Shown here: positions 39,873 to 63,392 of the stretch, one piece after another | Layout of the letters: each line of letters starts with the position of its first letter | How positions within the stretch are numbered: position 1 is the stretch's first letter | Source: Dictyostelium discoideum | Taxonomy: Eukaryota | Direction: 5' to 3' | Assembly: GCA_000004695.1 (NCBI GenBank) | Contig: CM000153.2 | Span: 992,001-1,056,000, forward strand | Length of the DNA: 64,000 bases | Notes under the pieces: model-generated | Told to the model about the DNA's origin: nothing | Databases searched by the model: none | Seen by the model: the letters and a program-made list of their open reading frames with translations, nothing else | Made by a program: the position numbers and the translations under genes

Positions 39873-41127
39873 TTAAGATAATAAATATTAAATAAAAAAT
39901 ATAAATATAAAAATAATACATAATCAATAAAGAATCATTAGAAATCTTAAAATGATAATAAATTTAGTATCAATGATTTTTTAATTTATCAATTATTAAA
40001 TAAATAATTTGATTAGGTGGTGTTTAATTATTTTTTTTTTTTTTTTTTTTGGAATTTATTATTAATTAAAAAAAAAAGTTTTATGATCTAACCCTATAGA
40101 TTCAAAATTCATACTAAATATTATTGACACAATTTTATCACTCACACAAGAGTATAAAATAATACAAAAGTGTTTTTAAAAATCATTATTAATGATTAAT
40201 AGATACACGTCCACCCCAAAATGGGTTATAAACAGCCAGTACAGCCCAAAGTGCACAACTAAATGCTTGTACGGGCTGTATGCAGAATCGATAGGGTTAG
40301 ATAATTACACTTTTTTATCCAATATTGTATTTATTTATTTATTTATTTATTTTTTTATAAAAAAATATTTTATTTAATTTAAATTTACACATATGAACAT
40401 ATCTGGAAAGTGGGTCATTAAAATAAAAAAAACTTTTTTTTTTAATTTTAATTAAATTTAATTTAAAATTAATTAAATTTAATAAAAATGGACATCTGTT
40501 TTAAATAATAAAGTAAAAATTGGTATATCTGTTTTAAACATTTTAATATAATTATTAAAATTTAATAAAATTTTATAATTATTATTTAAATTATTAATGA
40601 AATTAATTAAATTCTAAAAATACATTGGGTTATTAATATAACAAGATATTCTAAAACCGTATTAAAATTTCAAAAAAAAATTTCTTTGTTGCGATGAATT
40701 AGTTTTTCACAAGAGATTATATACCTTACAATAAAAAAGAATATCATTTTTTAAAAAGTAGATAAATGGATAATTAAGTAGATAATGGGATAAAAAAGTA
40801 AGATAATATTTTATGGAGTTATAATTTTAAACATATATTCTTTAATACCCGAAATTTCCTGTTTATTTAAAATTTATATTTGATAATTTTTCAAAATAAA
40901 CCAATATTAATTTGAATAGTGTTAGGTTTTTAATTTGAAATTTATAAATCGTGATAAATCTCTAAACAATTACTAATTAAATTTATATTAATTCTATAAA
41001 ATAAAAAAGTAAAATAAAAAACATTAAAAAAAAAAAAAATTTAAAACTTAATTTTTAAATTCGAAAAATTAATTAGTTATTTTAAAAATTTATATTGAAG
41101 ATAATTATAAATAAAGAATATTTTGAA

Positions 41128-43392: not shown

Positions 43393-43535
43393 TAAAGATA
43401 ATTTTGAATAAAAAATTAAAAAAAAAATACTTTACATACCCAAAAAAGAACATTAAATATGGATTTCTAGAAATTAATAAAAGTTTAATATCAATACTTT
43501 TTAAAATTTAATAAATTATTAGACGAGGTGGTGTT

Positions 43536-43579
<44 letters not shown>

Positions 43580-44029
43580 TTTCTAGAAAAGTCTTAAAAA
43601 TTAATTATCTTTTAGTTTGTATATTAAAAATAACGTAGAAAGATATGAGCGTTTGGCTTATTTATTGTTGTAGTTTTGTTTTTTAGTTTTTTTAATAAGG
43701 ATAGTCTCCTCTTTTTTTATTTTTTTTATTTCTCCTTATTTTTTTTTTTATAATAATAATGAAAATTTTTTTTTAAAGAAAAAAGAATAGTGTAAGGGGA
43801 GCAGAAAAGAAAATAAAAAATAATATTAAACAAAGAATAGACCAACCGACCAGCGCCACATAAAATTACTTTTCACCACTTTAATGATGGAGTTTTTATA
43901 TCCAGCCAACCTTAGAATAGTGTTTAGGTATTGAGACAATGTTAAATCTTTGGGTAGAGTGTTGTTTTGTTTGAAAGTGTATTCTATTGGGCTATTAAAA
44001 AGTTTTAAATTTTTTAATCTTGGTGTTAG

Positions 44030-45896
44030 GATCAAAGGTAATAATTTTATATTATTATTATTATAAATTTCATACCATATTAATTATAATTTTTACAAAT
44101 TAGGGTGAAAATAAAAAATTATTTTCTGGTCTTTCAAAAATGGTATTAAACTCCGTAGTTGATTCAAGAATTCATATAGGGGTAATGAACCTTCAATTTT
44201 AGAAGACGATTATTAAAGATTCTACTCAATTTTCAAGTTTTAGATATCAAGCTCATATGGTTGTTGATCCTTTAGTTCCAAGTTTATTGGTACAATTGCT
44301 GGTCTTTTTTATAATTCTAATATCTGCACTCCTCAATCTTCTAATAAATCCTCCTTTATTGAAAGTGCATTTACAAATGATCTACGTTCGATGGTAAGTT
44401 ACGATACAAGTAAAATACCAGATTATTATAATTCAATCGAAACAGTTTCAATAAATGAAACAATTAAAAGAGAATTTGAAACTGTATATCCACATGGTCA
44501 TAATACTAGTGGTGGTTCAGTATCAAATATTGAAGCATGTTGGTCAAGTTATTGGGTTAAATTTATTCCAGTTGCAATTAAAAATGCATTATTAAATGAA
44601 AATGATTTAATTGACTCGAAAAATTTATAAATTACACTAGAAGATGGTAAAACCAATAAATTATTAATTGAATGTACAAATTGGGAATTATCAAATTTAA
44701 ATGGTGATTTATCAGTAAAATTACCATATCAAATATGTTTTGAATGTAATTTACCAATTGAAAATGTTTATGAAATTATTAAAAGATATCATTTATGTTC
44801 ATTAGGTACATTTAAATTTTTTACAAATAATCAAATTAATGAACCAATATATTTAATACCAGCATCGTCTTGTCTTAAAAAGGCAGTATGTTTGATTGGA
44901 TTAGGTTCAGATAATATAAAACTAATAAAAATTGAACCAAATGGTAGAATGAATATGAATAAAGTAAAAATGATTATAAAAGATTGTATTGAAACCAAAT
45001 TCCAATAATAAATGTCATATCGATATTAGGCTCAACTCAAGAGTATGGTGTTGATAATGTTGATGAAATATTTTCAATTAGAAATCAAGTAAGAAGAGAC
45101 TTTAATTTTAATTTTGAAATGCATGTAGATGGTGCGTTCGGTGGATATTCATTATCATGTAGTAGAGATAACTTTCAATTGGAAAATCCATTAGATGATC
45201 AATTATTATTTCCTAATAATATTGAAAATGATGATAACAATCAAAATGAAATTGTATCATTTGATCCAGAATTAATAATTAGTAGTTATTTTATGCTTGT
45301 AAATTTGTAGATTCAATTACATTGGATGGTCATAAATCTGGTTATTTACCATTTTCAAATAGTACAATTTGCTACAGAAATTCAAAGTATAAAGATGTTC
45401 TTACATTAGCTCCTGTTTATGTCGATGATGGAAAAAAGAATATTCCAAACTATGGTGTGTTTGGTATTGAAGGTTCTCGTCTAGGTCATTCTTCAGTTGC
45501 AGGTTATTTAACTCATTCAATAATTCGTCCCCTTCAAAAAGTGGATATGGTAAACTTTTAAAAAGATGTATTTTAAATTCGAAATTATTTTATAATTCAC
45601 TATTAACGAAATTCGATGGTAATAATGGTAATAATATAAAAGTGTTTACAATTGGTAATAATCCATCAAGTGATGTTTTAAATTATTTAAAAACAGAAAT
45701 AATCGATTCGAATACTGGTAAAATCAAATCATTAGATCAAATCGTATCAAATAAAACATTATTATAAATTTTATCAAATTATGGAGCAGATTTAAACGGT
45801 GTTTGTTTTGGTTTTAATTTTATTTCGCCTTCTACTGGTGAATTAAATAATGATTATCAAAAATATGTAGAACTTAATAAAATGATAATTGATAGA
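44030..45896 (+). pseudogene. Decayed third tandem copy of the PLP-decarboxylase-like gene. The start codon is lost, and there are internal deletions, frameshifts and premature stops. It ends abruptly at 45896.
   Basis: It matches copies 1 and 2 at the nucleotide level across the exon-1 remnant and intron (ggatcaaag gtaataat...attagggtgaaaataaaaaattatttt). The match breaks into three short ORFs (44391-44630, 45119-45310, 45322-45561) that carry the HNTSGGSVSN, MHVDGAFGGY and DGHKSGYLPF motifs in different frames. In-frame TAA codons occur, for example ...DSKNL*. Confidence 0.8.
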
Positions 45897-46050
45897 TTAG
45901 ATGATTTATTGGAACATTTAAATGGAATTTTAATTTTATTTTAATTTTCTTAAAATTTGATATTTTTTTTTTTTTTGTGTAATTCTTGGGAATAAAACCA
46001 ATTAAAAAATTAAAATTTCAACCTGTAATAAAATCTCAGTGTAAACACTC

Positions 46051-47531: not shown

Positions 47532-47784
47532 ACAATTGTTTACAAAAAACACCCCCTCCTTCCTTATCATCATTCCTAAATGATCGATCACTTTACAAAA
47601 AAAAAAAAAAAAAAAAAAAAAATTTTTTTTTTTTTTTTTTTTTTTTTTCTTTTCTTTCTTTTATTCAAATCTTTTTTTTTTCTTTTTCTTTTTAATAAAA
47701 TTATAAACAATTCAAACTTTTATTTTTTAATTTAATTTTACTTTGTTTTATTTTATTTTGTTTTACTTTTTTTTTTTTTTTTTT

Positions 47785-49314
47785 TTAATTAACATACTGG
47801 AAAAGTTTGTCAAAATGAAATGAAATTTCTATGTTATCAATTACAATATCACCTTTTATATCTTTTATTTCAAAAATAATTTTATCCATTTGGAATCCTG
47901 GGTTAATGTCATATTTTTTAGTTCCATAGTACATTTTATTTTTATTATTAATTAATGAATTGCTATTTAATATATCATTATTAAAAGAATCCATATTTAA
48001 TTTTTTAATATTAACTTTTTCTAGAAATAATTTTGTTTGATTTGTTTTTGAATATGTTGAATTTATAAATAATAAAAAAGATAATTCACTCTCTATTTCT
48101 AAACAATTATTGTTATTATTTAAATTAATTTCATTTAATTTAAAATCATTTGAACAATGAATTAATATTGAAATTTGATTAAATTGTTTTTCTCCATTAA
48201 ATGATATTGATGTTTTTAAAATTTCATTTTTATTTATTGATGAAAAAAAAGGAATTAAACCAGATACTTGATCTATTAATTCATCTTGATTATTATTATT
48301 ATTATTAGTTGTGTTGTTGTTGTTGTTGTTGTTGTTGTTATTGTAATTATTAATACAATACATTAATGACTTTGGTTGAATTTTAAAAATATATAATTCT
48401 TCATTAAAATTATTTATTATTAAATTATTTTCATTTGTTTTTTCATCTTTTTTTGCACAAATAATTTTAATTGGATATTTATAATTTAAATAATCCAATT
48501 CATTAAATCTTGAAACATTTTTTAAAGTATTGTTTATTGTTGTTTTCAATTTATAAATATTATATTCATTAGTGTTTGACAATAATTGAAAAAATGAAAA
48601 TCCAAAATTATTTTGAAATTTTATTATTTCATTACGAAATTCATTTTGTAATTGTTTTTTCTTTTTTGGGTCAATACTAAATCCCCATTCATTACCATTA
48701 TTAATATAATCAATTTTTAAACAACTATATATTGACATATTTAAAGTTGATAATTTTAAAATTTGTTTTAAAAAAGTTGAAGTTGAAAAAGATGATAATG
48801 ACGATGAAGATGATTGTATCAGTGATGAAACAGGTTTAAAATAAAAGTCACTATATTCATTTAATAAAATTATTAATTTTGAATAATAATTTCTAATATT
48901 TAATTTTAAATTTTCATTTGAAAATTTAGAAAATTCTTGAAAATTAATAGTTTTTGAATTATAATTTGTAATAATTGATTTAATAGTTTTGTTACCAACA
49001 TTTCTAATTTCCCAAATTTTTAGTAAATCACATAAATTATTTCCATTCTCTTGTAAACTATATAAATTATTATTTAAAAATATTATAATTTCATCATTTA
49101 TTTTTTCATTTATTAATTGTTCAATATCTTGAATTAAACCATAAAATATTTTATTAAAATCATTTTGGTTTAAATAATTATTATCATCAAATGAGAATAG
49201 TGTTCCCCAAAATCCACTAAATATTCCTGATTTTAATTCATTATTAAATGGATTTAATCCAATTAAATTATATAATAATTGATATGATAATTCAATTCTA
49301 TCAATATCTTCCAT
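47785..49314 (-). CDS. Hypothetical protein of 509 aa, Asn/Ile/Leu-rich, with no recognised domain.
   Basis: ATG at 49312-49314. Long uninterrupted frame. It carries a poly-N tract typical of this genome. Confidence 0.45.
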   Translation of the reverse strand: MEDIDRIELSYQLLYNLIGLNPFNNELKSGIFSGFWGTLFSFDDNNYLNQNDFNKIFYGLIQDIEQLINEKINDEIIIFLNNNLYSLQENGNNLCDLLKIWEIRNVGNKTIKSIITNYNSKTINFQEFSKFSNENLKLNIRNYYSKLIILLNEYSDFYFKPVSSLIQSSSSSLSSFSTSTFLKQILKLSTLNMSIYSCLKIDYINNGNEWGFSIDPKKKKQLQNEFRNEIIKFQNNFGFSFFQLLSNTNEYNIYKLKTTINNTLKNVSRFNELDYLNYKYPIKIICAKKDEKTNENNLIINNFNEELYIFKIQPKSLMYCINNYNNNNNNNNNNTTNNNNNNQDELIDQVSGLIPFFSSINKNEILKTSISFNGEKQFNQISILIHCSNDFKLNEINLNNNNNCLEIESELSFLLFINSTYSKTNQTKLFLEKVNIKKLNMDSFNNDILNSNSLINNKNKMYYGTKKYDINPGFQMDKIIFEIKDIKGDIVIDNIEISFHFDKLFQYVN

Positions 49315-49763
49315 TTATATATTATATATTTATTATTTTTTTTAAAATAATTATAAAATAAAATTCAATAATACAAATAAATAATAATAATAATAAAAGA
49401 AAAAATAATAAAAATAAATAAAAAAAAAAAAAAAAAAAAGGAATATTCTTGTTGGTTGTTCAAACACACAACACAAAATTAAAATAAAATAGTTAACTAT
49501 TTTTCGAAATCGAGTGGTGAAAATAAAAAAAAAAAAAAAAAGCATGTTCCTTATCTTTTATATATAAATTTTTTTTTTTCTTTTTATTTGTTTTTTTTTT
49601 TTTATTACAATACTCTATGTTTCTTCCTTTATCTTTTCTTTTTTATTTTTTTTTTTTTTTTTAAATTTTTGAGTTTTGAATATTTTCTACAATTTCTGTA
49701 TTACTTTAACTGTATTATTATTCTTTTTATATGTATTATTTTTTAAAAAATTATTTATCGAAT

Positions 49764-50491
49764 TTAATGAGATAATGGATATTTGTGGGTGATATCGTAA
49801 TATTTTTGTTTGAGTGCTGGATTTGCTTCCAAGTATTCGCTTCTAAATAATTCATAATCGTTTTCTGATTTATTATCAAAATAACGTATTGAAAATAATG
49901 AACCAATGATTGGAAGTAAACAAAGAGCTGTTAAATAGTATGGATTCATTGGGTATGGTACTGATGGCTATTTTTTCGTTATTTTTATTATTATTCCACA
50001 TGATTTGTTGAGTGAGTGAAATTGAAATGTTAATATTGTCATCATTAATACTAATTATAAAATATTATACATACTGGTGTATTTAAAAAGTAACCTCTTG
50101 GGAATTCATCTTCAACATCATCTGGATTAACATGATCGTGGTGTTCATCATGGTGTTCATCATGGTGACCATCGTTTGCGTGACTATCGTGATGATGGCC
50201 ATGTGAACAACCTGGACCATGAACATGATGTTGTTGTTGTTGTTGTTCTTCTGCTAATTCTCTAATTTGAATTGGATCAACAATAAAATTTCCGTGTTTG
50301 TATGAATAGACTGCGTCACCAAATTCTACTCTTCTTGTAATCATTTGTGTACCTGCTTCAGGTTCAGTTGGATAAGCACCACCTGCTTCACCACCACCAT
50401 GACTTGCAAATGAACGAATGGTAGTGTGTTTTACAATTGAGTTTACAACAACATTTTTTGTAGATAATAATCTAGTTGCTCTTGATAACAT
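49764..50491 (-). CDS. Mitochondrial protein with an N-terminal presequence and a COX5B-like segment, plus His-rich and C-terminal TM regions. Model: complement(join(49764..49967,50075..50491)).
   Basis: MLSRATRLLSTKNVVVN... looks like a mitochondrial presequence. ASHGGGEAGGAYPTEPEAGTQMITRRVEF resembles the N-terminus of mature cytochrome c oxidase subunit 5B. Exon 1 ends ...NTP and is followed by a GTATGT donor. The acceptor aaaatAG is at 49968-49969. Exon 2 in phase 0 reads PSVPYPMNPYYLTALCLLPIIGSLFSI...*. Confidence 0.5.
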
Positions 50492-50994
50492 CCTATAATT
50501 ACTTATTTATTTTTTTTTTTTTTTTTATAAATATGAATCTAAAACAAAATCAAAAAAAAAAAAAAAAAATTAAAAAAAAAAAAAAAATTGAAAAAAAAAA
50601 AAAATTTTGAAAAAAAAAAAAAAAAAAAAAATAAAAAAAGATATGAATGAAAATAGTTAAAAACAAATAATTATTTCGTTTTTCTTATTTCCCAAAAAAA
50701 GAAAAAAAGTAAAAAATAAAAAAATAAAATAAAAAATAAAAAAAAGAAAAAAATAAGAAAAAGCAAGTTATTGGACCTACCTTGGTTTTCAAGTTTTTTT
50801 TCTTTTTTTTTTCTTTTCATAATTTTTTTTTTTATTAATTTTAAAAATTACAAGAATTTTTTAAAATAAAAAAACAATTTTACCCTTTTTTTTTTTTTTA
50901 TAAACTAAAATTTTTTTTTTTTTTGTTAAATTAAAATGAATATAAACAAATAATAATAAAAAATAAATAAACAAACAAATAAATAAATATCAAA

Positions 50995-52131
50995 ATGTAT
51001 ACACAACAAAAACAAACACAAACACAAACACAAAATGTTAACAATAATCAATCACGAATAATACCATCTTCTTTTTCTTTTCAATCATCACAATCAAATA
51101 ATAAAGTATATAAACCAATACCATTGAAAGAGATGGAATTATTTTTATTCACTATACCAAGTAAAGAAAAGACTTTAATGTTAACAGATTTAGACGAAAA
51201 TACGACAAAGAAGGATATAGAGATAGCATTTTCAAGGTTTGGTTTAATCTATGATATTGTTGTTTACACAAATAAAAACTCTAAGCGAATATTAGGGTTA
51301 ATTAAATATTGTCTTGAAAACAGTGCTATATCAGCACTGAATCATCATCATACCATTGAAAAGATAAAAATCAATGGGAGAGAATGTACATCTGTAGTAT
51401 TATCAAGTTTTAAAAGTGACAAACCCTTTGAAATACCATTTCCAAAATCATTACAAATTATCAATCATCTTTTAGGTTTTAATCAATGGTCTACTGAAAT
51501 AGATAGATTCGAACATGAATACACTCGAGAGATTTTACTTGAAACTGATTTAAATGGTGTACCACTACAAACACCAATTAGAAAATATGAATCGAAATGG
51601 TATGCTTTGGTTTATTCAACATTCAAACAAATTGACGTTAGAATTAGTACAGTTTCACATGGTGTTGGTGAAGACTCTTGTAAGATTGAGGCAACTAGAA
51701 ATGCTAAAAAGGTTGCAGTTTCAAATTCAAGAAAATTAGCATTCACAAAAATTGGTATACTAATCATTAAGGATCAATCACCAATACCCTGTATATTAGA
51801 TCAAGACTCAATAGTAGATAGTAGTTCAAATAATTTTAACTCTGATTGTAATCAATATATGTTTGATAATAATTTAATTCAAAATGATGAAAATGAACAA
51901 CAACAAGAAGAAGAAGAAGAACAACAACAACAAGAAGAATTTGATGAAAATGAATTTCAAAATAATGATATAGATTTCGATTTTGATACCAATGATAGTA
52001 ACCCAACTGATTTAGATGTTGATGTTGATGTTGACATTGATACTGATGTTGATTTTAGTTCTGATATTAAAATTGATGATTCTAATGTTGATGCAGGTGT
52101 TGATATTGATGTTGATATTTCAATACCTTGA
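50995..52131 (+). CDS. RAD52 motif-containing protein 1 (RDM1)-like protein of 378 aa, with an RRM-like domain plus a RAD52-like motif and an acidic C-terminal repeat (DVDVDVDID).
   Basis: The RRM-like segment reads LFLFTIPSKEKTLMLTDLDENTTKKDIEIAFSRFGLIYDIVVY. The RAD52-like segment reads INHLLGFNQWSTEI...KWYALVYSTFKQIDVRISTVSHGVGEDSCKIEATRNAKKVAVSNSRKLAF. Single exon. Confidence 0.55.
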   Translation: MYTQQKQTQTQTQNVNNNQSRIIPSSFSFQSSQSNNKVYKPIPLKEMELFLFTIPSKEKTLMLTDLDENTTKKDIEIAFSRFGLIYDIVVYTNKNSKRILGLIKYCLENSAISALNHHHTIEKIKINGRECTSVVLSSFKSDKPFEIPFPKSLQIINHLLGFNQWSTEIDRFEHEYTREILLETDLNGVPLQTPIRKYESKWYALVYSTFKQIDVRISTVSHGVGEDSCKIEATRNAKKVAVSNSRKLAFTKIGILIIKDQSPIPCILDQDSIVDSSSNNFNSDCNQYMFDNNLIQNDENEQQQEEEEEQQQQEEFDENEFQNNDIDFDFDTNDSNPTDLDVDVDVDIDTDVDFSSDIKIDDSNVDAGVDIDVDISIP

Positions 52132-52238
52132 AAAAATAAAATAAATAAATAAATAAAATAAAATAAATAAAAGAATAGATATATATATATATATATATAT
52201 ATATTAAATAATAATAAAAATAATAATAAATATTTATT

Positions 52239-53371
52239 TTATTCATTTATAATATAATTAAAACTTTTTTTAATTTCTTCATATAATAATAAAGTAATTG
52301 AAGTATTTGGTATAACTTTTAATGTATTTGGTACTAAACCACGATAAAATCCTATTATACCTTCATTCTTTAAAATTTTAAATATAACATCTTTTGTTCC
52401 ATTGTATACTCTAACATTATTTTGATTTGGTATATTTCTTTCATCTTGTAATCTAGTCTTTACAACTTGAAATGGATATAAAATTGTACTTGCTAAAAAT
52501 TTTGAAATACTACTTGCTATAAAAATTTCTGATGCATTCTATATAATATATATATATAAATTTATAATTAATAATAGATTATTTACTTTTTTTTTATTTA
52601 TATATATATATATGAATTAAAATAAAATAATTCTTACTAATGAATCTAATGATTTACCAGAATTTGAAGAGAAATAAAATTTAATATGTTCATATGAAGA
52701 CATTTGAATACCACCATGAAATGTTAACCATAATGATGGAATTACGCCTTTATATAAACCTTTGAAACCTTCAACTTTAACAGTTTTTTTAATTCCATCA
52801 AATATACCTGTATAATAATTTGCAGAACCAGGTGTTTGTAATTGCATACGTGTTTTAATTAAAAATATTGGATTCGTTATGAAAACTTGGGTTGCACTAG
52901 CACCAACTGCGCAAATGAAATGATCAAATGTATTTAATTGTGTAACGTTGTATTTGGATTTTAATATATTTTTATAGGCTTCGTAAAAGTGCATATAGGT
53001 TCCCCATGCTATTCCACTAGCAACAATTGTTGGTGATGATCCTCTCCAAAATTGTTTAATTCCTTCATTCTTTAAAACGTTTTTACATGTATCAATAACT
53101 CCAACCCTTTTAAATTTATTTAAATCACCTCCACTTGCAAATCCACTGCCTTGTAACCTAATTTTTAAAAAATCAAATGGTTGTAAAAATGCTGTTGCAA
53201 CTGTTGATCCTAATAATGCTGATGTTCCTTCAACATCTTTTTATTTTTAAAAAAAAAATAAAAATAAAAAAACATAAAAAAAAAAATCAAACAAATAATA
53301 ATTAATATATTTAAAGTAATAATTGATAATTGATAGTATTTAATATACATACAAGGTTGAAATAAAGACAT
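52239..53371 (-). CDS. Mitochondrial carrier family (SLC25) protein of about 305 aa, complement(join(52239..52538,52638..53236,53353..53371)).
   Basis: Exon 1 is ATGTCTTTATTTCAACCTT (MSLFQP+t), followed by a GTATGT donor. The acceptor aaaAG is at 53237-53238. Exon 2 contains PFDFLKIRLQ and PIFLIKTRMQLQ. It ends at tta followed by a GTAAGA donor. The acceptor tatatAG is at 52539-52540. Exon 3 contains PFQVVKTRLQ and runs to the TAA at 52239-52241. That makes three carrier repeats at the correct total length. Confidence 0.85.
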
Positions 53372-53671
53372 TGTAGGACTAATTTTTGAATTTCTCTGAT
53401 TTGTTAAAAGAGGTGTTAAAATATTATTAAAAAATTTGGATTGTTCAAAATTTTCAAAAAATAAAAAAAAAAAAAATAAATTAAAAAAAAAAATAAAAAT
53501 CTTTTTTTTTTCGTTTTTTGTCCCAAAATATCGTTTCGTTATTTGTTTTAGGTAAAAATTTTAAAAAATAAAAAAAAACATTTATTTATTATAATTATTA
53601 TTTTATTATTTTTATTATTATTACTATTATTTAATATATATCTCATTATAAAACATACAATTTTATTTTCA

Positions 53672-53705
<34 letters not shown>

Positions 53706-54051
53706 ATTAATAATAACTAGTTATATTAATTTTTTTAAAATATAGCCTATTTATCCAAATTTTCTATTTTTTTTTTTTTTTTACTCAACAAAAATGATTT
53801 ATTTGTTTGATCAAAAAAAAAAAAAAAAAAGGTTTCGTTTTGTGAAATTAAAAAAAAATAAAAAATAAAAAAAAAATAAATTACGGGGTTTTTTTTTTTT
53901 TTTTTTTTTTTTATTTCATTTTTAATTTTTATTTTTTTTATTTTTTTTATTTTTTTTTTTTTATATACCCACCACATACACAACAATAATATTTATTAAT
54001 AAAGCAGTCGATTTAAAAAAAAAAAAAAAAGAAATATAAATAATAATAAAA

Positions 54052-54527
54052 ATGGCAACCCCAATTATTGTTGGAGCAACCATTGCAGGTATTGCATATT
54101 CAAGTAGATTTTTAATTAGAGTTATTCAAAGAGCAAAATCAAAACAACTTTTTGAAATGGTTTCAACACCAGGTTTCACTGTTGAAACTATTGAAGATGG
54201 TTTCGAAAATAAAATGACTCCTGCTGAAGCTGCAAATATTTTAGGTTTAAAGTAAGTTTTTTATTTTACTATAAATAAATTTCATTTTCTATTATTTTTA
54301 TTTTTATAACCCCCCTTTTTTTTACAATAAAAATACTAATATTTAACTAAAATTACAATCTAATTTTGAATTATTGATTATATAGAGAAGAATCAACAAA
54401 AGAAGAAATTAAAATTAGACATAAACTTTTAATGATTAAAAACCATCCAGATAAGGGTGGTTCCTCTTATTTAGCAACCAAAATTAATGAAGCAAGAAAT
54501 GTTCTTTCTTCTAAAAACAGCAATTAG
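54052..54527 (+). CDS. Mitochondrial import inner membrane translocase subunit TIM14/PAM18 (DNAJC19-like J-protein), join(54052..54251,54386..54527).
   Basis: The N-terminal TM reads [17 protein letters not shown]. The J-domain carries the [11 protein letters not shown] and HPDKGGS motifs. Exon 1 ends aa, followed by a GTAAGT donor at 54252. The acceptor tatAG is at 54384-54385. The codon aa+a continues in frame to the TAG at 54525-54527. Confidence 0.8.
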
Positions 54528-54827
54528 TTGTTGATCGAATTTAAAATATAAATAAAATAAATAAAAAAAAAAGAAGAAAAGGATCCTTTTTTTCTCTCGA
54601 ATTTGTACAAATTAAAAACCCTCAAGAGATATTAATATTATAAAAAAAAGATATTGTTTTATCATTTCCAATTTTAAATTATTGTTTTTTTTTTTTTTTT
54701 ATTGTTTGTTTAATATACAAAAAAAATGTTATTAATCTTTTTTATTTTTTATTATCTTTTTTTTTTAATTTTATTTTTATTTTATTTTTATATCACACGC
54801 ACATATTTGTATTTATAATTAAAATTT

Positions 54828-55289
54828 TTAACCTCCATGTAAAGTTGAAATGAAAATGATTGTATCTTTATCTTCTACATTGTATGAGATACCACCAAAT
54901 AATTCCCAATCTGCGTCATTAATTAAAACTAAAATACCTGGACGACTATTTTTTTTTTTTTTTTTATAATTAGTAAAAAAAAAAAAAAATAATAATAATG
55001 GATTTTATATATACTTACACTGTATCATCAACTACAAATAACTCTGATCTTTCTTTGAGTAAGTTATCTCTCATATATAAAATTAAATCTTTTAATGGAA
55101 TTTCATTCTTATCTGAAAATTCAATTTCGTGTACTTTCTTTTTATCAAATAATAATTCTAATCCACCACTAAAAATAATAATTTTTTTTTTTTTTAATAA
55201 ATTATTATTATTATTATATTAGTATTACTATTATTATAAGAAGATTTATTAAATTAAGATATATACCTTAATTCAATTTTAACTTTCAT
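54828..55289 (-). CDS. urm1: Ubiquitin-related modifier 1 (URM1) of 96 aa, complement(join(54828..54945,55019..55168,55267..55289)).
   Basis: The protein [96 protein letters not shown] is collinear with URM1 and ends in the diagnostic Gly-Gly. The donors are GGTATAT (first G at 55266) and GTAAGT (first G at 55018). The acceptors are ttttAG and aatAG. The phases are consistent. Confidence 0.85.
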
Positions 55290-55489
55290 TTTATATTCTA
55301 TTTATATCAATTAAATTTTGAAAAAAAAAAAAAAAAAAATAAAGCAAAAAAAAAAAAAAAAAAAAAAAAGGTTTTGTTTTTCTCGAGTTTTTTTTAATTT
55401 CCATTTTTTTATTGATAAAAACCTTAAAATTTGGCACTTAAAAAAAAAAAAAAAAAAAAAAAATTATTTTTCATTTTATTTTTTTTTTA

Positions 55490-55962
55490 ACAATGATCCA
55501 AGAGCACCATCATTGAATGGTCATGATAACCCATCAGTTAATAATATGATCACTTCTGTCTCTTTCATATCAAATCCAACTACTAGATTATTATTGGCAT
55601 TCATTTGGTGATTGGAATTTAGATAAATCAAATCATGTAATTTCTTTATCACTAAATGATAATTAATGGTATTCAATTAATACATGTAATATTAATGCTT
55701 AACAAATGGATACAGATATGATTGCAAAAACCACAATAACTATATCAATAACAGTTGTGCAACAACAACAAAACAACAATGGCAACAACAGCAATCAATA
55801 AAGGTACATTAATTGAAGATAGCGTTAATAGTTCATTAAAGATTTTATGCTCAGCATTATTTAATCCACCAAATTGGTGAATACTTTGTAGGGTCATCCA
55901 ACTACAATACCTTTGAGATTATTACAAGTGATTATAATAATAATAATAGTATATTGGCATAA

Positions 55963-56003
<41 letters not shown>

Positions 56004-56400
56004 AACAACAACCACAAACAACAGGAAACTACTTTCACAATTCCAAAATAAATTGGAGACTCAAATACCACACCCACCAAATTCATTAGATAATGCAACT
56101 CCAATTACTACATCCACTGCAATTGGTGAGGATTGTAAACCTCTGTAATCATTCCAACCATATCGTTGATATGAAGAAGCAATTTAAAACCATCGCAATC
56201 TATCATAGGACTTGTATGCAAAATAAAGTCCCAAACTTTTATTTGGAGAAACTTGATCGTATTCAAGTCACTGTCATTTGTATCAATGAGTATGCTGCAA
56301 GATATCGATTGGTTGATATCATTTATGATCCATCAGAGTTTGACACATTCGTCGTTATCTTATGGAAGTAAAAATGCAAACAATATCAAAAAGTTGTAAA
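55490..56400. other. Compositionally atypical block that is less AT-rich, uses codons rare for this genome such as CGA and AGG, and contains broken ORFs on both strands. It is probably a pseudogene or a degenerate mobile-element remnant.
   Basis: On the minus strand a vWA-like fragment ...LVVGFDMKETEVIILLTDGLS* ends abruptly. On the plus strand an ORF ends ...EYAARYRLVDIIYDPSEFDTFVVILWK*, and a (CAACAG)n tract lies at 55950-56000. No consistent spliced model could be built. Confidence 0.35.
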
Positions 56401-56979
56401 CCAGTTTACCATCACTACTACCACAGAATTCAGAGTTTGAAACTCGTTATTTTATTCTTGATTTAAAAATTAAAAAAAATAATAAAAAATAATAAAAAAA
56501 AAAAAAAAAAAAAAGTAATAACCTTTTAATTTAAATATTTTATTTTTATTTGTTTATTTTTATTTTAAATTGACCAAGAAAATATTTTTAAACTTTTTTT
56601 TTTTTTCTGTTTATATTTTTTAATCAAATTTCCAAAAAGTAAAAAAAAAAAAAAAAGAAAAATACAATAAATTACCAAAGAGATAATAAAAAAAAAATAA
56701 TAATAATAATAATAATAATAAAATCTATTTTTTGATTACATTTAAAATATAAATAAATGTTTTAGTATATAAATAAAATTTTTTTTTAAAAAAAAAAAAA
56801 AATGTAACGTTTATTCATTCCTGTTATGACCACAACAGAAATGAAAACGTGCGTTTTTTTAAAAAAAAAAAAATTACAAAAAACCGCTACTTTTCGCTTT
56901 TTTTTTTTATAAAACAAAATTTCAACTTTTTCCAAAATTTTTTTTTTTTTTGATTTTTTCCACTCTAACGTACCTAAAA

Positions 56980-57683
56980 ATGAAAAGAAACACTAGTATG
57001 TATCTTTATATCACATATCCTAATTCACCTTCAATCTATCAAAATAAATAGAGAGATAATTATTGATAATATTAGACTATCAATCTAATAATCTTCACTA
57101 TCAATCAATCACAAAATAATCTTTCACACTACCTATCCATTATCATTATATATCATCTTTCACCATTCACACATTATCTATAAAACACATTATCGTCATG
57201 CGCAATCATATGAATAATACTCTATGATTGTTATTAACATTATAATGTTTAAATACTTATTATAATGTTATCTACACAGACGTCAGCTCATCCCGTAGAA
57301 AGTCAAGAAAAGCACACTTCACCGCCTCATCAGGTGAAAGACGTATCCGTATGTCTGCTGCTTTATCTCACGATTTAAGAACTAAATACAACGTTAGATC
57401 TCTTCCAATCAGAAAAGACGACGAAGTCCGTGTTGTCTGTGGTGATAACAAGAATCACGAAGGTAAAGTTGTTGCCTGTTACAGAAAGAAATACGTCATC
57501 CACATTGACAAACTTACCGTCACCAAAACCAACGGTAACACTGCTCAAATTGGTGTCAGTCCATCAAATGTCATCTTAACTAAATTAAAATTAGATAAAG
57601 ACAGAAAAGCTTTATTAGAAAGAAAAAACAGAACCGTCGCTGCTGATAAGGGTAAAGTCAAAGTCTCTGCTGACGTCAACTAA
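56980..57683 (+). CDS. rpl26: 60S ribosomal protein L26 (uL24) of about 139 aa, join(56980..56995,57280..57683).
   Basis: Exon 1 is aaaaATGAAAAGAAACACTA, followed by a GTATGT donor. The acceptor cacAG is at 57278-57279. The spliced protein [55 protein letters not shown]...KKYVIHI... is collinear with eukaryotic L26. Confidence 0.85.
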
Positions 57684-58016
57684 ATTAAATAAATTATTTT
57701 AGGTGAAATACAAATTAAATTTGGTTTATAGTGTTTATTTATTTTAGTTTATTTTATGTGATAAAAAAAGAAAAAGAAAGAAAACAAAGAATAATATATC
57801 TAAATTTATTTTATTTAATAATTTCATACGAGTGACTTTCAACTCTTTTTTTTTTGTTATTTTTTTTGTTTTTTTTTTCACATATTATTGCAAATGAAGG
57901 ATACTAATTATAATTTGTCAATTTTAAACTATTATAATTTTAAAACTATTATATTGTTTATTGTTGTGTTATTATAATATTGAGTATTGTAGTAATTGTT
58001 TTTTTGAATTAATTTA

Positions 58017-58729
58017 TTACATCATATGATAGTCAGCTTCGATATCTATATCGTCAGATGTCTCACCACCAGTTTCATCAATTTCTTCATATTCATAATC
58101 ACGACTTGAATCATAATCTGGTTCATTATCAAATATTGAGAAAATTGGATTTTCCATTTGAGATGTCATCTTTTTTGATCTTTCAACAAAATCATTAAAA
58201 TCATCTTTGGTCTTGCAAAAGAAAGCAACTACCAATGATGGGTCAACTTCTGAAACATGTGTTCTCTTTGTGGTGCTACAAAAGAAGGTCTATTTTTTTA
58301 ATGACAATAATAATAATAAAATGATGTTAATAAAAAGTTTGAAATATATCAACTGTTATTAATGTTGTTGTTTATAATAATTTTCACTCACATTTAAAGG
58401 GAATTTAGAACCATTTTCAACTTCTATATGATTTTGAACAGTATGTGGATCTAAATAAAATAAGTTATCATCTTGTGCAGCGATAAAATAAAGTGATGCT
58501 CTTGGTTTTCCACCAACAACACCAAGATTTTGAGGAAACTTAAAGATTTCTAACAATGAAGAATGATAAATACTATTTAATCCATCCAAACCTAATCTCA
58601 TTGGAATTAAAATTAATAATGGTTCCCAAGTTTCATCATTATCTTTGTTGTTGTTTTCACTTATTTCATCTTTACTTTCATCATCAATTTTATCTTGTTT
58701 TTCATTCACATTGCTACTATCATTTATTA

Positions 58730-58795
<66 letters not shown>

Positions 58796-59311
58796 CATCA
58801 ATATTATTCTTATCCACATTTTCATTATGTTTTTCATCATTAATTTTATCATCACCATTATCTGTTGATGACTCTATTTGTTGTTGTTTTTGTTGTTGTT
58901 CAGTGGATGATGTTTTTTTCTTTTTAGAAGAAATATTTAAAAGTTGGTCTATATACAATGAACCATCCTCTGAAATGAAAACTGATATATTACATTGATC
59001 ATAATTTCTTGAGACAAGAATCCTTTTTTTTTTTTTTTTTTTTTTAATAAAAGTAAATTAGAAACATTATTCAAAAAAAAAAAAAAAAAAAAAATAAAAT
59101 AAAATAAAATAAAATAAATATAAACTTACTTTATTGTTTGAGAAATGATGGATGGTGCGAACCATTCACCAATATTCTTTCCAAGGTTTTGGCCCTCCAT
59201 GGCAATGTTATGAATAGAAAATGGAGCCGATGGTTTATCTAAAAACATTGAAATAATCTATAAAAAATAATAAAAGAAAAAAAAAAAAAAGAATTAATAA
59301 ATTTTGATTTT

Positions 59312-59349
<38 letters not shown>

Positions 59350-60138
59350 TCATTACATTATTATATACATCTGGATGAGTTGCACTTGAGGATCTTTTCC
59401 ATTCATCGCCAAGTATATTATGGAGTAATACATTTGATAATAACATTTGACCAGATCTAAGCATGCAACCCCAACCACAATCATTATCATACATTGTGTC
59501 ATCAATGCAAGGAAATCCTTGACGGTATGTAAACCAGAGAACTCTGGTAGTGAAATCATTTAAAAATTCTTTAATAAATAATTGATTTTGATTATTATTA
59601 TTATTATTATTGTTATTGTTATTCTCCTGTTGAGAGTTAATAGAAGTGGGTGTTATTGTTGGTGAAGGATCTATATTGTTACTATTTGGGTTGTTGTGGT
59701 TATTGTTATTTACATTTTCATTACCAACAATATCATCATTTGCTTCATTTTTTATTTCTAAATTATCTGCTGTTGATGTTGTTGTTGTTGTTGTTGGATC
59801 AATATTACTGCTATTTTCGCCAATATTGCTATTTATATTATTTATTGTAGTAATTAATCGATTCAATTTCAACAAGTTCTCTGCTAATGACGGTCTATAT
59901 TCATTGTCAAACATCCATATTGGTGAATTTGAAAATTGTGGTTGTGCAAGAGTATCTAAATTTTTTTTTTTTTTAAGGGGATTGTGTTAAAATTAAAATT
60001 AAACAAACTAAAAAAAAAAAAAAAAATTATTTTTTATTTTTTATTTTTTATTTTTATTTTTATTTTTATTTTTATTTCTTTTTAAAAATAATACATACTA
60101 CCCGCAGCACCTCTAATTAAATAGAGACAGTTCATCAT
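58017..60138 (-). CDS. atg4: Autophagy cysteine protease ATG4 of about 553 aa. The five-exon model is complement(join(58017..58280,58392..59022,59130..59257,59357..59955,60099..60138)), and the 5'-most exon is tentative.
   Basis: The catalytic region reads LWFTYRQGF...DCGWGCMLRSGQM. A conserved segment reads IGEWFAPSIISQTIK. The C-terminal conserved segment reads DPSLVVAFFCKTKDDFNDF. The donors are GTAATG, GTAAGT, GTGAGT and GTATGT, and all phases are consistent. The first in-frame ATG of the long exon is at 59912-59914. The upstream 40-nt exon MMNCLYLIRGAAG+a is supported only by splice signals. Confidence 0.75.
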
Positions 60139-60848
60139 TAACCTCCTTGGTAATGAACTAAAATTGATGTTTGATAATGAATCTATTTTCGCTTAATCCC
60201 TTTTTTCTTTCAAAAAAGAAAAAAAAAAAAAGTTTTAATTATTATTATTATTGTTGTTGGTTGTTGTTGGTTGTTTTTTACTGTTATTGTTGTTGCTTTT
60301 ATTAATTCTATAAAATTAGGTCAAAGTTTTAATTTGACTTGGTTTCTGTTCACTCAAAACACATTGATATTTGGACAATAACTATAAAAAAAAAAAAAAA
60401 AAAAAGAAAGAAAATAGAAAAATAAAAAATTTTTTATAGGTGAAATAATAGTAGTAAATAGTGGTACTAATGTGTTTTTTTTTTTTGTGTGTGTGTTTTT
60501 TTTTGAGTTTTTGTTTGTAATAAAATATTTTTTTTTTTTTAATTTTTTATTTTTTTTTTTTTTTATATTAAAAAAAAGAAAAAAAAAAATAAAAAAAAAA
60601 TAAAAAAAAAATAAAAAAAAAAAAAATATTTTTTTTAAATTATTCTTGTGAAAATATCTTATTTTTTTTTTTTATAAATAAATATTATTTTTTTTTATAA
60701 ATAAATATTTAATTTTGGAAACCAATAATTATAAAAAAAAAAAAAAAAGTATATATTAAATTTAGAAAAAAAAAAAAAAAAGTAATCAAAATAAAATATT
60801 TTCTATTTTTATTTTTTACTCCCAATTTTTTTGTTTAAAAAAAAAATG

Positions 60849-60880
<32 letters not shown>

Positions 60881-61012
60881 GAAATAAAAAAAAAAAAAAT
60901 TTAATTTTTATAAGAAAAATTTTATTTAAGGTAATTTTGTAATTGGTGTGTGTGTGATGTATGATGAAGTGTGTGAATTAACTATTTTATGTTTTTTTTT
61001 TTTTTTTTTCCC

Positions 61013-61043
<31 letters not shown>

Positions 61044-61163
61044 CCTGATTTTTTTTGGAAACCCCCAATTATTAAAAAAAAAAAAAAAAAAAACAAGGAT
61101 CCAATCCAAGTTTTAATTCTTTCTTTTAATTAATTTAAAAGGGGTTTTTTTTTTTTAGTTTTT

Positions 61164-62032
61164 TTAAACATGAAAAGAATGAGATCTATTCTTAAAAGCT
61201 TTAATATTTCTAATTGTAATTTTTTCTTTTTTCTTTTTTTCTTCTTCTTCTTTCAAGTTTGCTTGGTATAATTTATCATCCATTCTGATGTAATTACCTT
61301 CACACATATCACCTTGGAAACTTTCAAAGAATTTCTTATAACCTCCATTTAATAGATAAATCTCAGGATAGTGAATATTTGGATACTCATTATGTTCACG
61401 ATCCAACTCTCTAAATAGAGAATAACAATCTGGAGCTCTCTTTGAAGAGAATTCACAATGGAAAATGATGACATGTTGTTGATTTTTTGGTGTTGGAAAC
61501 TTAAAGAATCTATCCAATACCATTTGTCTTGAACCAGTTGGTGGAATATTAATTGCATTTTTAATATGTCCACCATCATATTCATATTTATATCTACAAT
61601 CAACAACGGTAATAATAGCATTAATAAGAGTTGGATTCTTTAAAAGTTCATAAACTGATTCTGATGAAACTCCATTATAACCTTGACGACCTGATAATTG
61701 TTTTAATAATTTTGCTTTAAATTGATCATCCTGTTGATCTTGATCTTGTGTTAAATTATTATTATTATTACTATTGCTAATATTACGTTGTTGTTGTTGT
61801 TCAATAATTTTAGCAATATTACTATTTACATTATTAATTTTATCTAATTTGTTAGTATCATTTTCATTTTCATTATTATTGTTAGTATTTGAAGTATCAA
61901 CTGGTTTTGGTAATGAATTTGAAGAAATATGAATATCAGGTGATTGTCTTGAAATAAAAGATGATGACATTGATAGAGGACGTGGTGGACGTTGTGAACT
62001 AATAGAGTTTGAACGTGAAAAATATGAAGAGA

Positions 62033-62072
<40 letters not shown>

Positions 62073-62533
62073 TAAATTTGCATTACTATTCAAATTTTGT
62101 TGAATAGCAGCCAAAGTATTTGTTACAGAAATGGTGGTTGTGGTGGTGGTGGTTGATGATGATGATGATGATGAGTTAGAAGTGGTGTTGGTAGTATTTT
62201 CAATTAAAACATTTTGTTGTTTTGGAGAGGATGAAGGTGAAATTAAACCGGTTGAACTAGTATTATTATTATTGGTTTGAGTAGAAAAACAAGAACTATC
62301 TTCATCAAGCAAATGTGAAGAAAATTTTGTGAAATCCAAACAAGTTCTAGAACGTTTACCGGTTTGTTGACTATTACTGATACTATTAAAAATAGCTGAT
62401 GAGTTTGGTGAGTGAAATGATAATTTACTTGGAGTTTTATATGGTGATCCTGAAATTTGATCTAAACTAGTATTTGGTGAATCATCTCTATCTTCACTGG
62501 TTGATTGATTATTTAAATTATTACTATTGGTTC

Positions 62534-62627
<94 letters not shown>

Positions 62628-63102
62628 TATATTATTAAAAATTCTATTTACAAGTGGAGTTGGTACCATTGGTGATAATTCAGGACTTGATGGGTAATAT
62701 TGTTGTTGATAAGGTGAAAGAAAAGATAAAGAAGATTGAGAACGTTCACGAGTTTGAACTATTGGAATTGATTGAGATGGTGATGATGATGGTGAGTTGT
62801 GATGTTGTCTCATTGAACTTACGAGTAAAGGTGGATTTAAAAGTACAGTGGCAGATCTACCCAAATGTAGGTAGGTTGTAGAGTTTGTTGCATTCAATGA
62901 TGATGATAATGATAGTGATAATGATGGATTAATTGGTGTTGGTGTTGGTCTAACCAATTGAATTGGTGTTGGTGGTGTATCATCCTCATCATCCTCACCT
63001 CCTTCCTCATCTGATAAACATAATGATCTATTATAACTATATTCTTTAACTGGTGTACTAATCAATACAATTGATTCATCATTAATTGAAATGTTACTAT
63101 TA

Positions 63103-63181
<79 letters not shown>

Positions 63182-63323
63182 TTTCTAATAGAGAAAATAA
63201 TGATGGAGCTGAAGAAGATAACATTTGTGGTGGTAATGAATTTGAACTATTAAATTTATGTGGAATTGAATTTGAAGATAATGAATGAGCAACTGTTGGA
63301 ATTGTTGGTCTATCTTGATTTAA

Positions 63324-63392
<69 letters not shown>

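What the first reader, a model, noticed from the sequence alone, without database searches (positions are those of the whole stretch)
55490..56400. Atypical roughly 900-bp block with broken ORFs, a candidate TE remnant or pseudogene
The local composition is less AT-rich and uses codons that native genes here avoid, such as CGA and AGG. ORFs on both strands end abruptly mid-domain. On the minus strand the fragment ...VVGFDMKETEVIILLTDGLS* resembles the middle of a vWA domain. On the plus strand there is a fragment ...YLEKLDRIQVTVICINEYAARYRLVDIIYDPSEFDTFVVILWK*. A (CAACAG)n tract is also present. I could not build any consistent spliced gene. The block may be a decayed horizontally acquired segment, a retroelement ORF remnant, or a processed pseudogene sitting between URM1 and rpl26.
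Basis: seen in the sequence. Interest (0 to 1): 0.55.

Follow-up and report, generated by a model that had tools for sequence, protein, structure and literature searches.

The report
Decaying histone-deacetylase gene fragment in Dictyostelium
The block is a dead, partial copy of a slime-mould histone deacetylase gene (hdaC family) inserted between URM1 and rpl26 only in the Dictyostelium discoideum lineage and now drifting neutrally, so it is an ordinary gene relic whose one surviving reading frame is annotated as a hypothetical protein.

Summary
The window is Dictyostelium discoideum chromosome 4. The block is real: about 31% GC against 11-17% in its flanks. That is normal exon composition for this genome, not foreign composition.

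Its ORFs are no longer, and its stop codons no rarer, than in dinucleotide shuffles.

The longest ORF (92 aa, 56093-56371, +) is the AX4 model DDB_G0283739. It matches dictyostelid class II histone deacetylases (hdaC, 1400-1900 aa) at the start of their catalytic domain: E=2e-12, and 67% identity over 55 aa. The homology continues to 56444 through two frame changes and an in-frame stop.

The 1.1-kb segment is absent from the same URM1-rpl26 site in D. firmibasis, P. violaceum and T. lacteum. It is present in a second, divergent D. discoideum assembly. There it differs by 7.9% plus 13 indels, like introns and intergenic DNA and unlike exons (0-3.4%), and the 92-aa ORF is broken.

Verdict: a lineage-specific, neutrally decaying hdaC-derived pseudogene fragment. 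The minus-strand vWA reading, a TE origin and horizontal transfer are not supported. The origin of the 5' 650 bp and the copying mechanism remain unresolved. Low interest; useful mainly as an annotation correction.

The parts
55414..56536 (+). D. discoideum-specific segment (about 1.1 kb) absent from the orthologous URM1-rpl26 intergenic region of D. firmibasis. It holds the GC-richer block plus short AT-rich junctions.
   Evidence: Homology with D. firmibasis ends at 55413 and resumes at about 56515-56537. D. firmibasis has about 68 bp in its place. Intergenic lengths: D. discoideum 1691 bp, D. firmibasis 597, P. violaceum 260, T. lacteum 437.
55490..56460 (+). GC-richer, exon-like block with no sustained ORF; the pseudogene relic proper.
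   Evidence: GC 0.31 with A>T and C>G on the + strand. ORF and stop statistics equal those of shuffles. No frame has positive codon log-odds overall. 7.9% mismatches and 13 indel events against the divergent D. discoideum assembly, as for introns and intergenic DNA.
56183..56344 (+). In-frame stretch homologous to the last residues before, and the first residues of, the HDAC catalytic domain of dictyostelid hdaC proteins (FKTIAIYH..C..NVPNF.LEK.DRI...).
   Evidence: phmmer E=2e-12 to P0122 (P. violaceum, residues 898-957) and to five further dictyostelid orthologues. tblastn gives 67% identity over 55 aa. A profile of six orthologues scores 74 bits, E=1.6e-24. PF00850 starts at residue 919 of P0122.
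56345..56444 (+). Continuation of the hdaC homology after two frame changes (RRYLMEV, then NANNIKKL*TSLPSLLPQNSEFET), with an in-frame TAA at 56397-56399.
   Evidence: tblastn aligns P0122 963-983 with 56373-56444. The frameshift-aware profile alignment over 56147-56444 scores 200, against 30.5 +/- 3.8 in 200 shuffles.
56093..56371 (+). 92-aa ORF annotated in AX4 as hypothetical protein DDB_G0283739 (XP_638994.1, Q54QM9); the residual reading frame of the relic.
   Evidence: Exact match in the protein collection, in a singleton cluster. Codon log-odds are -0.19 bits per codon, against +0.19 to +0.39 for real genes. In L006 the ORF is broken by 1-bp insertions, a 4-bp deletion and a stop.
55953..56004 (+). 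(CAACAG)n microsatellite inside the relic; its length differs between lineages.
   Evidence: Read directly and seen as repeat families D7-D9. The tract is 34 nt shorter in L006.
55490..56146 (+). 5' two-thirds of the block; origin not demonstrated.
   Evidence: No significant match to hdaC orthologues by tblastn, HMM, frameshift-aware alignment or window-wide motif ranking. It is assigned to the same insertion only because the whole segment is missing in D. firmibasis and has uniform composition and strand skew.

Best explanation
The block is a non-functional relic of a partial copy of a dictyostelid class II histone deacetylase gene (hdaC family). The copy landed in the short divergent promoter region shared by URM1 and rpl26.

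Timing: it arrived after the D. discoideum lineage split from D. firmibasis and before the two sampled D. discoideum lineages diverged.

Content: it holds only the residues just before, and roughly the first 66 residues of, the roughly 300-residue deacetylase domain. It therefore lacks the catalytic centre. It has since picked up frameshifts, stops and microsatellite expansion at the neutral rate.

Annotation: the 92-aa AX4 gene model DDB_G0283739 is the longest surviving piece of the old reading frame, not a gene in its own right.

Shown: the homology, the lineage restriction, the neutral divergence and the ORF breakage.

Inferred: that the 5' 650 bp came in with the same event (perhaps the parent's low-complexity linker); that the parent is D. 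discoideum's own hdaC; and the copying mechanism.
For: Homology:
- The 92-aa ORF hits six dictyostelid hdaC-type proteins of 917-1936 aa, E=2e-12 to 1.4e-6, always at the start of the HDAC domain.
- tblastn gives 67% identity over 55 aa, plus a second stretch in another frame containing a stop.
- The HMM gives E=1.6e-24.
- The frameshift-aware alignment has z of about 44.
- PF00850 spans residues 919-1250 of P0122, so only the domain's N-terminal edge is present.

Lineage restriction:
- rpl26 and URM1 are divergent neighbours 260-597 bp apart in D. firmibasis, P. violaceum and T. lacteum, but 1691 bp apart here.
- The extra 1.1 kb is unalignable to D. firmibasis.
- No hdaC-like piece is found at those loci.

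Neutrality:
- Against the divergent D. discoideum assembly GCA_054859385.1 at the same locus, the block shows 7.9% mismatches and 13 indel events in 911 bp.
- Intergenic and intron DNA show 2.4-9.4% (six of seven stretches 5.4-9.4%); exons show 0-3.4%.
- The ORF is broken there, and its homology is split over three frames.

No coding signal: ORF lengths equal those of shuffles, and codon usage is non-native.
Against: - Only about 260-300 bp (56147/56183-56444) is demonstrably hdaC-derived. The remaining 650 bp matches nothing significantly.
- The D. discoideum parent gene could not be retrieved, so identity to the parent and the extent of the copy are unknown.
- Plus-strand RNA folds somewhat better than shuffles (z=-3.1, only 20 shuffles), so a structured transcript is not strictly excluded.
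- The polarity of the indel rests on parsimony with one close relative and two outgroups. D. purpureum is rearranged at this site.
- No expression data could be examined.
Confidence: 0.85

Rival explanations
1. DDB_G0283739 is a genuine, young, species-specific protein-coding gene: a 92-aa protein, or one of the spliced 137/154-aa models, born from the relic.
For: An intact 92-aa ORF with ATG and stop exists in AX4 and in GCA_054883475.1. AATAAA motifs lie about 100 nt downstream. Three annotations call a gene here.
Against: - The ORF length is within chance expectation (P=0.14).
- Codon log-odds are negative, unlike real genes.
- The ORF carries 8.4% mismatches and 4 frame-breaking indels against the sister lineage, where it is interrupted.
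- The three gene models disagree with each other, and the 137-aa one needs three short introns of 47-68 nt that are not AT-rich.
- The peptide is a non-catalytic sliver of a domain of about 300 residues.
Confidence: 0.05
2. The block is a transcribed long non-coding RNA gene, possibly a pseudogene-derived regulator of hdaC.
For: It has exon-like GC in a genome whose non-coding DNA is 10-17% GC. The plus strand folds with z=-3.1 against -1.2 for the minus strand. Polyadenylation-like motifs lie at the 3' end. Many intergenic lncRNAs are reported in D. discoideum (PMC5295588).
Against: - Divergence and indel density equal those of neutral DNA.
- No Rfam family matches.
- No lncRNA at chr4 1,047,4xx-1,048,5xx appears in the stored parts of the lncRNA tables of PMC5295588. 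Those files are truncated, so this point is weak.
- The fold z-score rests on 20 shuffles.
Confidence: 0.07
3. The block is a remnant of a transposable or retro-element, or a retroposed (processed) copy made by the retrotransposon machinery.
For: It is a lineage-specific insertion. An A-rich tract with a 21-A run lies directly 3' of the block. A weak direct repeat containing AACCTT lies at both junctions.
Against: - There are no terminal inverted or long terminal repeats beyond A/T low complexity.
- The flank-to-flank similarity is not significant against random AT-rich pairs (P=0.07).
- There is no tRNA gene nearby, although TRE elements target tRNA genes (the targeting is my own knowledge).
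- There is no second copy in the 64-kb window.
- The only homologues are a host gene family.
- The copy ends inside the coding sequence rather than at an mRNA 3' end.
- The intron test is uninformative.
Confidence: 0.1
4. The block is a horizontally acquired segment, or a vWA-domain pseudogene on the minus strand.
For: The GC step relative to the flanks, and a short LLTDG-like motif on the minus strand.
Against: - GC equals native exon GC.
- The block holds polyQ-type CAA/CAG repeats typical of this genome.
- All significant homologues are dictyostelid.
- Neither the minus-strand fragment nor any other fragment tested matches vWA or any other family convincingly at E<=10; the only hits are two unrelated chance-level ones at E about 0.06-0.1.
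- The minus strand is antisense to the hdaC homology.
Confidence: 0.01

Closest known systems
Dictyostelid hdaC: class II histone deacetylase with an ADD/FYVE-type zinc finger (e.g. T. lacteum KYR00611.1, P. violaceum KAF2071005.1); Pfam PF00850 Hist_deacetyl
   Same: Residues 900-985 of the P. violaceum protein align colinearly with window 56183-56444, at 67% identity in the best 55 aa.
   Different: Only about 85 of about 1500 residues are recognisable. The catalytic part of the domain, the zinc finger and the rest of the protein are all absent. The frame is broken twice and holds a stop. The relic itself matches neither Pfam nor PDB.
Unitary or duplicated gene fragments (partial-duplicate pseudogenes, gene relics) in eukaryotic genomes
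   Same: An internal piece of a host coding sequence at an ectopic site, with no intact ORF and a neutral substitution and indel rate.
   Different: The mechanism (DNA-templated repair copy or retroposition) is unresolved. The relic sits inside a bidirectional promoter region and is annotated as a protein-coding gene.
dutA, the developmentally regulated untranslatable RNA of D. discoideum (recalled from memory, not tested)
   Same: A roughly 1-kb sequence without a sustained ORF in D. discoideum.
   Different: No evidence of transcription here. The block has protein-family homology and evolves neutrally. I did not have the dutA sequence, so no comparison was made.

Membership tests
hdaC-family class II histone deacetylase (functional member) | Significant sequence homology to family members | tested here: met
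   phmmer E=2e-12 to 1.4e-6 against six dictyostelid orthologues. Family HMM E=1.6e-24. Frameshift-aware alignment z of about 44.
hdaC-family class II histone deacetylase (functional member) | Complete PF00850 deacetylase domain including the catalytic and zinc-binding residues | tested here: not met
   Homology stops at P0122 residue 985 or so, while PF00850 spans 919-1250. The frameshift-corrected translation gives no Pfam hit at E<=10 and no HDAC hit in PDB.
hdaC-family class II histone deacetylase (functional member) | Uninterrupted reading frame | tested here: not met
   Two frame changes and an in-frame TAA within 56345-56444. Stops occur in all frames upstream.
Pseudogene (neutrally evolving gene copy) | Substitution and indel rates like non-coding DNA, with independent disabling lesions in related lineages | tested here: met
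   7.9% mismatches and 13 indel events in the block, against 0-3.4% in exons and 2.4-9.4% in intergenic and intron DNA (six of seven stretches 5.4-9.4%). L006 carries additional frameshifts.
Processed (retroposed) pseudogene | Lacks the parent's introns | tested here: inconclusive
   P. violaceum and T. lacteum hdaC have no intron in the matching region, which lies in single exons covering aa 338-1501 and 19-1499. The D. discoideum parent gene structure was not available.
Processed (retroposed) pseudogene | Poly(A) tail at the mRNA 3' end, and target-site duplication | tested here: inconclusive
   An A-rich run follows the block, but the copy ends inside the coding sequence, and A-runs are ubiquitous in this genome. 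The flanking repeat is not significant (P=0.07).
Transposable element remnant | Terminal repeats (TIR or LTR), TE protein homology, multiple copies | tested here: not met
   Only low-complexity repeats are present. There is no second copy in the window. The homologues are a host gene family. Genome-wide copy number could not be tested.
vWA domain protein (minus strand) | Match to a vWA profile | tested here: not met
   No Pfam family at E<=10 for the minus-strand fragment.
Functional long non-coding RNA | Discrete transcript and sequence or structure constraint | tested here: inconclusive
   There is no sequence constraint and no Rfam match. The plus-strand fold has z=-3.1 from 20 shuffles. 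Transcription is not testable with these tools.

The most novel reading that the evidence does not exclude
In AX4-type D. discoideum the relic has been co-opted. One possibility is a transcript driven from the URM1/rpl26 bidirectional promoter region that feeds the RNAi machinery or titrates factors acting on the parental hdaC mRNA. The other is a newborn 92-aa micro-protein, DDB_G0283739, whose ORF is intact only in this lineage.
Probability: 0.05. Interest if true: 0.55.

Novelty: new member of a known kind. Interest (0 to 1): 0.15.

Why it matters
Mostly as housekeeping.
- DDB_G0283739 (XP_638994.1 / Q54QM9) and the spliced models in two newer D. discoideum assemblies (137 aa, and KAM9976347.1 at 154 aa) should be re-labelled as an hdaC-derived pseudogene fragment. 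They should not be counted among species-specific 'orphan' proteins.
- It is a dated example of ectopic insertion of an internal coding fragment into a compact, AT-rich bidirectional promoter. The insertion came after the D. firmibasis split and before the two D. discoideum lineages diverged.
- It also gives a small neutral-rate yardstick for the D. discoideum species complex.
- It does not open a new biological question.

Tried and rejected
- Concatenated six-frame fragments searched against the 5.8-billion-protein index, plus strand and minus strand: no hits. These negatives are unreliable. The plus-strand query contained the whole of DDB_G0283739, which is in that collection, yet it was not returned. 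The later exhaustive phmmer search with the plain 92-aa ORF found the family.
- Pfam on ten fragments at E<=10: nothing relevant.
- tRNA and Rfam scans: no tRNA and no Rfam hit at gathering threshold; in E-value mode only two chance-level matches to bacterial sRNA families, far below their gathering scores.
- Search for a paralogous copy in the rest of the window: only low-complexity matches.
- Remnant of the D. purpureum gene that sits upstream of URM1 there (374 codons including the stop, with cysteine/histidine-rich motifs; not scanned): no similarity.
- Exact look-up of the 92-aa ORF on Logan or other contigs, as a proxy for transcripts: not on record.
- Extending the hdaC homology into 55490-56146: pairwise frameshift-aware alignment gave z<=1.5; profile alignments, local and anchored, were not significant; window-wide ranking of conserved upstream motifs put no top hit in the block.
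- Target-site duplication: not significant.
- Intron test for retroposition: uninformative.
- Literature and supplement look-ups for expression of DDB_G0283739: nothing found. The only trace is a row without a D. purpureum partner in Additional file 4 of PMC3188802.
- dutA, mitochondrial-DNA insert and rDNA-spacer ideas were considered. They were dropped once the hdaC match appeared, and Rfam in E-value mode showed no rRNA-like match.

Full report
IDENTITY OF THE WINDOW
The window is 23% GC with long A/T runs and CAA-type repeats.
- It is 99.67% identical over 21 kb to chromosome CM142510.1 of a Dictyostelium discoideum assembly.
- URM1, rebuilt from three exons on the minus strand, is 100% identical to AX4 DDB_G0283737 on the 5.45-Mb chromosome 4.
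- A supplementary table of PMC5295588 places that gene at chr4 1,046,828-1,047,289. Window position x therefore corresponds to about chr4 992,000+x.
- rpl26 (two exons, ATG at 56981) lies on the plus strand.
- The block sits in the divergent intergenic region between the two genes.

CHECKING THE OBSERVATION
The compositional step is real. The block has GC 0.25-0.335, against 0.11-0.17 on both sides. That is the normal GC of exons in this window, so 'atypical' is true only relative to intergenic DNA.

All six frames are full of stops. The quoted peptides and the (CAACAG)n tract are present.

The ORF pattern is what chance gives for this composition. The longest stop-free run is 93 codons, against 75 +/- 17 in 2000 dinucleotide-preserving shuffles (P=0.14). 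The lowest stop count in any frame has P=0.29.

A codon log-odds score trained on the window's own long ORFs is negative in all six frames over the whole block. For the longest ORF it is -0.19 bits per codon, against +0.19 to +0.39 for rpl26 and a neighbouring gene.

The minus-strand 'vWA-like' fragment matches no Pfam family even at E<=10.

WHAT IS ANNOTATED THERE
- The 92-aa ORF at 56093-56371 (+) is the AX4 model 'hypothetical protein DDB_G0283739' (XP_638994.1, Q54QM9), a singleton at 90% identity.
- Assembly GCA_054883475.1 carries a 137-aa spliced model at 55779-56371. It can be reproduced only with three or more short introns that are not AT-rich.
- Assembly GCA_054859385.1 carries a different 154-aa model, KAM9976347.1.
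- The three models disagree with each other.
- DDB_G0283739 appears without a D. purpureum partner in Additional file 4 of PMC3188802.

HOMOLOGY
An exhaustive phmmer search of the 92-aa ORF against 1.84 billion representative proteins returned itself and, at E=2e-12 to 1.4e-6, six large dictyostelid proteins of 917-1936 aa. They come from P. violaceum, T. lacteum ('hdaC, FYVE-type zinc finger-containing protein'), A. subglobosum, C. fasciculata, Synstelium and one unnamed EukProt species. The match always falls at the same place, the motif FKTIAIYH.C..HNVPNFHLEKPDRI that opens the histone deacetylase domain.

PF00850 spans residues 919-1250 of the P. violaceum protein.

Further alignments:
- tblastn aligns residues 900-954 with 56183-56344 (67% identity), and residues 963-983 with 56373-56444 in a different frame, with an in-frame TAA at 56397-56399.
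- A profile of the six orthologues gives 74 bits, E=1.6e-24.
- A frameshift-aware profile alignment that I wrote joins 56147-56444 through two frame changes. It scores 200, against 30.5 +/- 3.8 for 200 shuffles.

The 3' third of the block is therefore a frameshifted copy of the residues just before, and about the first 66 residues of, an hdaC-type deacetylase domain. The catalytic part is not there. The corrected translation matches neither Pfam nor any PDB deacetylase.

LIMITS OF THE HOMOLOGY
I could not show that 55490-56146 derives from the same gene.
- Pairwise frameshift-aware alignments to five orthologues gave z<=1.5.
- Local and anchored profile alignments were not significant.
- The best window-wide matches to the conserved coiled-coil motifs upstream of the domain do not fall in the block.

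In the orthologues, the stretch immediately before the domain is a length-variable linker (alignment print-out). The block here is rich in polyQ, polyN and T-rich translations. It may therefore be the D. discoideum parent's own low-complexity linker. That is inference; the parent protein could not be retrieved.

COMPARATIVE EVIDENCE
The URM1 orthologues allowed the syntenic loci to be fetched.
- In D. firmibasis, P. violaceum and T. lacteum, rpl26 and URM1 are divergent neighbours separated by 597, 260 and 437 bp. Here the distance is 1691 bp.
- Alignment with D. firmibasis holds up to 55413 and resumes at about 56515-56537. About 68 bp there replace 1.1 kb here.
- Neither blastn/tblastx of the block nor tblastn of the hdaC segment finds anything at those loci.
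- D. purpureum is rearranged at this site, and its upstream gene is unrelated to the block.

By parsimony the segment was inserted on the D. discoideum branch.

A second 'D. discoideum' assembly, GCA_054859385.1, holds the block at the same locus. Across the 15.7 kb that aligns, it is about 10% different from the window when gaps are counted.

Between the two lineages:
- The block shows 7.9% mismatches and 13 indel events in 911 bp.
- Intergenic and intron stretches show 2.4-9.4%, with six of the seven measured at 5.4-9.4%.
- Exons show 0-3.4%.
- The 92-aa ORF itself has 8.4% mismatches and four indels.

In that lineage the ORF is interrupted, and the hdaC homology is split over three frames. 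At some positions it keeps the more parental state (PPENSEFET, against LLPQNSEFET in the window). The (CAACAG)n tract differs by 34 nt. This is the signature of neutral decay after a single shared insertion.

MECHANISM OF ORIGIN
This is unresolved.
- The hdaC orthologues have no intron in the matching region, so the classic test for retroposition is uninformative.
- The copy ends inside the coding sequence.
- The A-rich run 3' of the block is unremarkable in this genome.
- The junction direct repeat is not significant against random AT-rich pairs (P=0.07).
- There are no terminal repeats, no tRNA gene and no second copy in the window.

ALTERNATIVES
A functional RNA is not excluded. Plus-strand folding gives z=-3.1 from only 20 shuffles; there are no Rfam hits. 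The neutral divergence argues against it. A real micro-protein is unlikely for the reasons given above. TE, HGT and vWA readings find no support.

METHODOLOGICAL CAVEAT
My two concatenated-fragment searches returned nothing, even though one query contained a sequence that is in the database. They should not be read as evidence of absence.

VERDICT
This is an ordinary, lineage-specific, hdaC-derived pseudogene fragment that is mis-annotated as a hypothetical protein. Interest is low, and the value lies in correcting the annotation.

Noticed in passing
window 37600-40050, 41100-43400, 44000-45900: Three tandem copies of a pyridoxal-dependent decarboxylase gene (PF00282), about 91-92% identical to each other at the DNA level.
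   Followed up: partly
window 56803-56853 and 56960-56983: Sequence islands upstream of rpl26 conserved with D. firmibasis inside otherwise unalignable AT-rich DNA: AATGTAACGTT...CACAACAGAAATGAAAACGTGC, and CCACTCTAACGTACCTAAAAATG at the start codon. These are candidate rpl26 promoter or 5'-leader elements.
   Followed up: no
window 55372-55395 (CTCGAG-containing motif upstream of URM1): TTTTTCTCGAGTTTTTTTTAATTT is conserved between D. discoideum and D. firmibasis just upstream of URM1. It may be a URM1 promoter element.
   Followed up: no
L001 (GCA_054883475.1) and L006 (GCA_054859385.1), URM1 position: Neither of these two D. discoideum assembly annotations calls URM1 at all, while both call spliced models inside the pseudogene block. 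These annotations look unreliable for short genes.
   Followed up: partly
L006 vs window 47643-63347: Assembly GCA_054859385.1, labelled D. discoideum, differs from the AX4-type sequence by 2-3% in exons and mostly 5-9% in non-coding DNA. That is far more than the 0.3% between the window and GCA_054883475.1, which suggests a deeply divergent lineage or a cryptic species.
   Followed up: partly
window about 54685-54926 (chr4 1,046,685-1,046,926, + strand): The lncRNA catalogue of PMC5295588 lists an antisense transcript, CUFF_3221_1, overlapping the 3' end of URM1.
   Followed up: no
window 55585-55675: An imperfect inverted repeat (about 24-nt arms, CATTTGGTGAT...ATCACTAAATG) forms the most stable local hairpin in the plus-strand fold of the block. 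One arm is heavily substituted in L006.
   Followed up: no
tool behaviour, vs 39 and 53: A query made of ORF fragments joined by X failed to retrieve an identical 92-aa database entry through the word-indexed search. The plain ORF found it, and its family, in the exhaustive search.
   Followed up: yes
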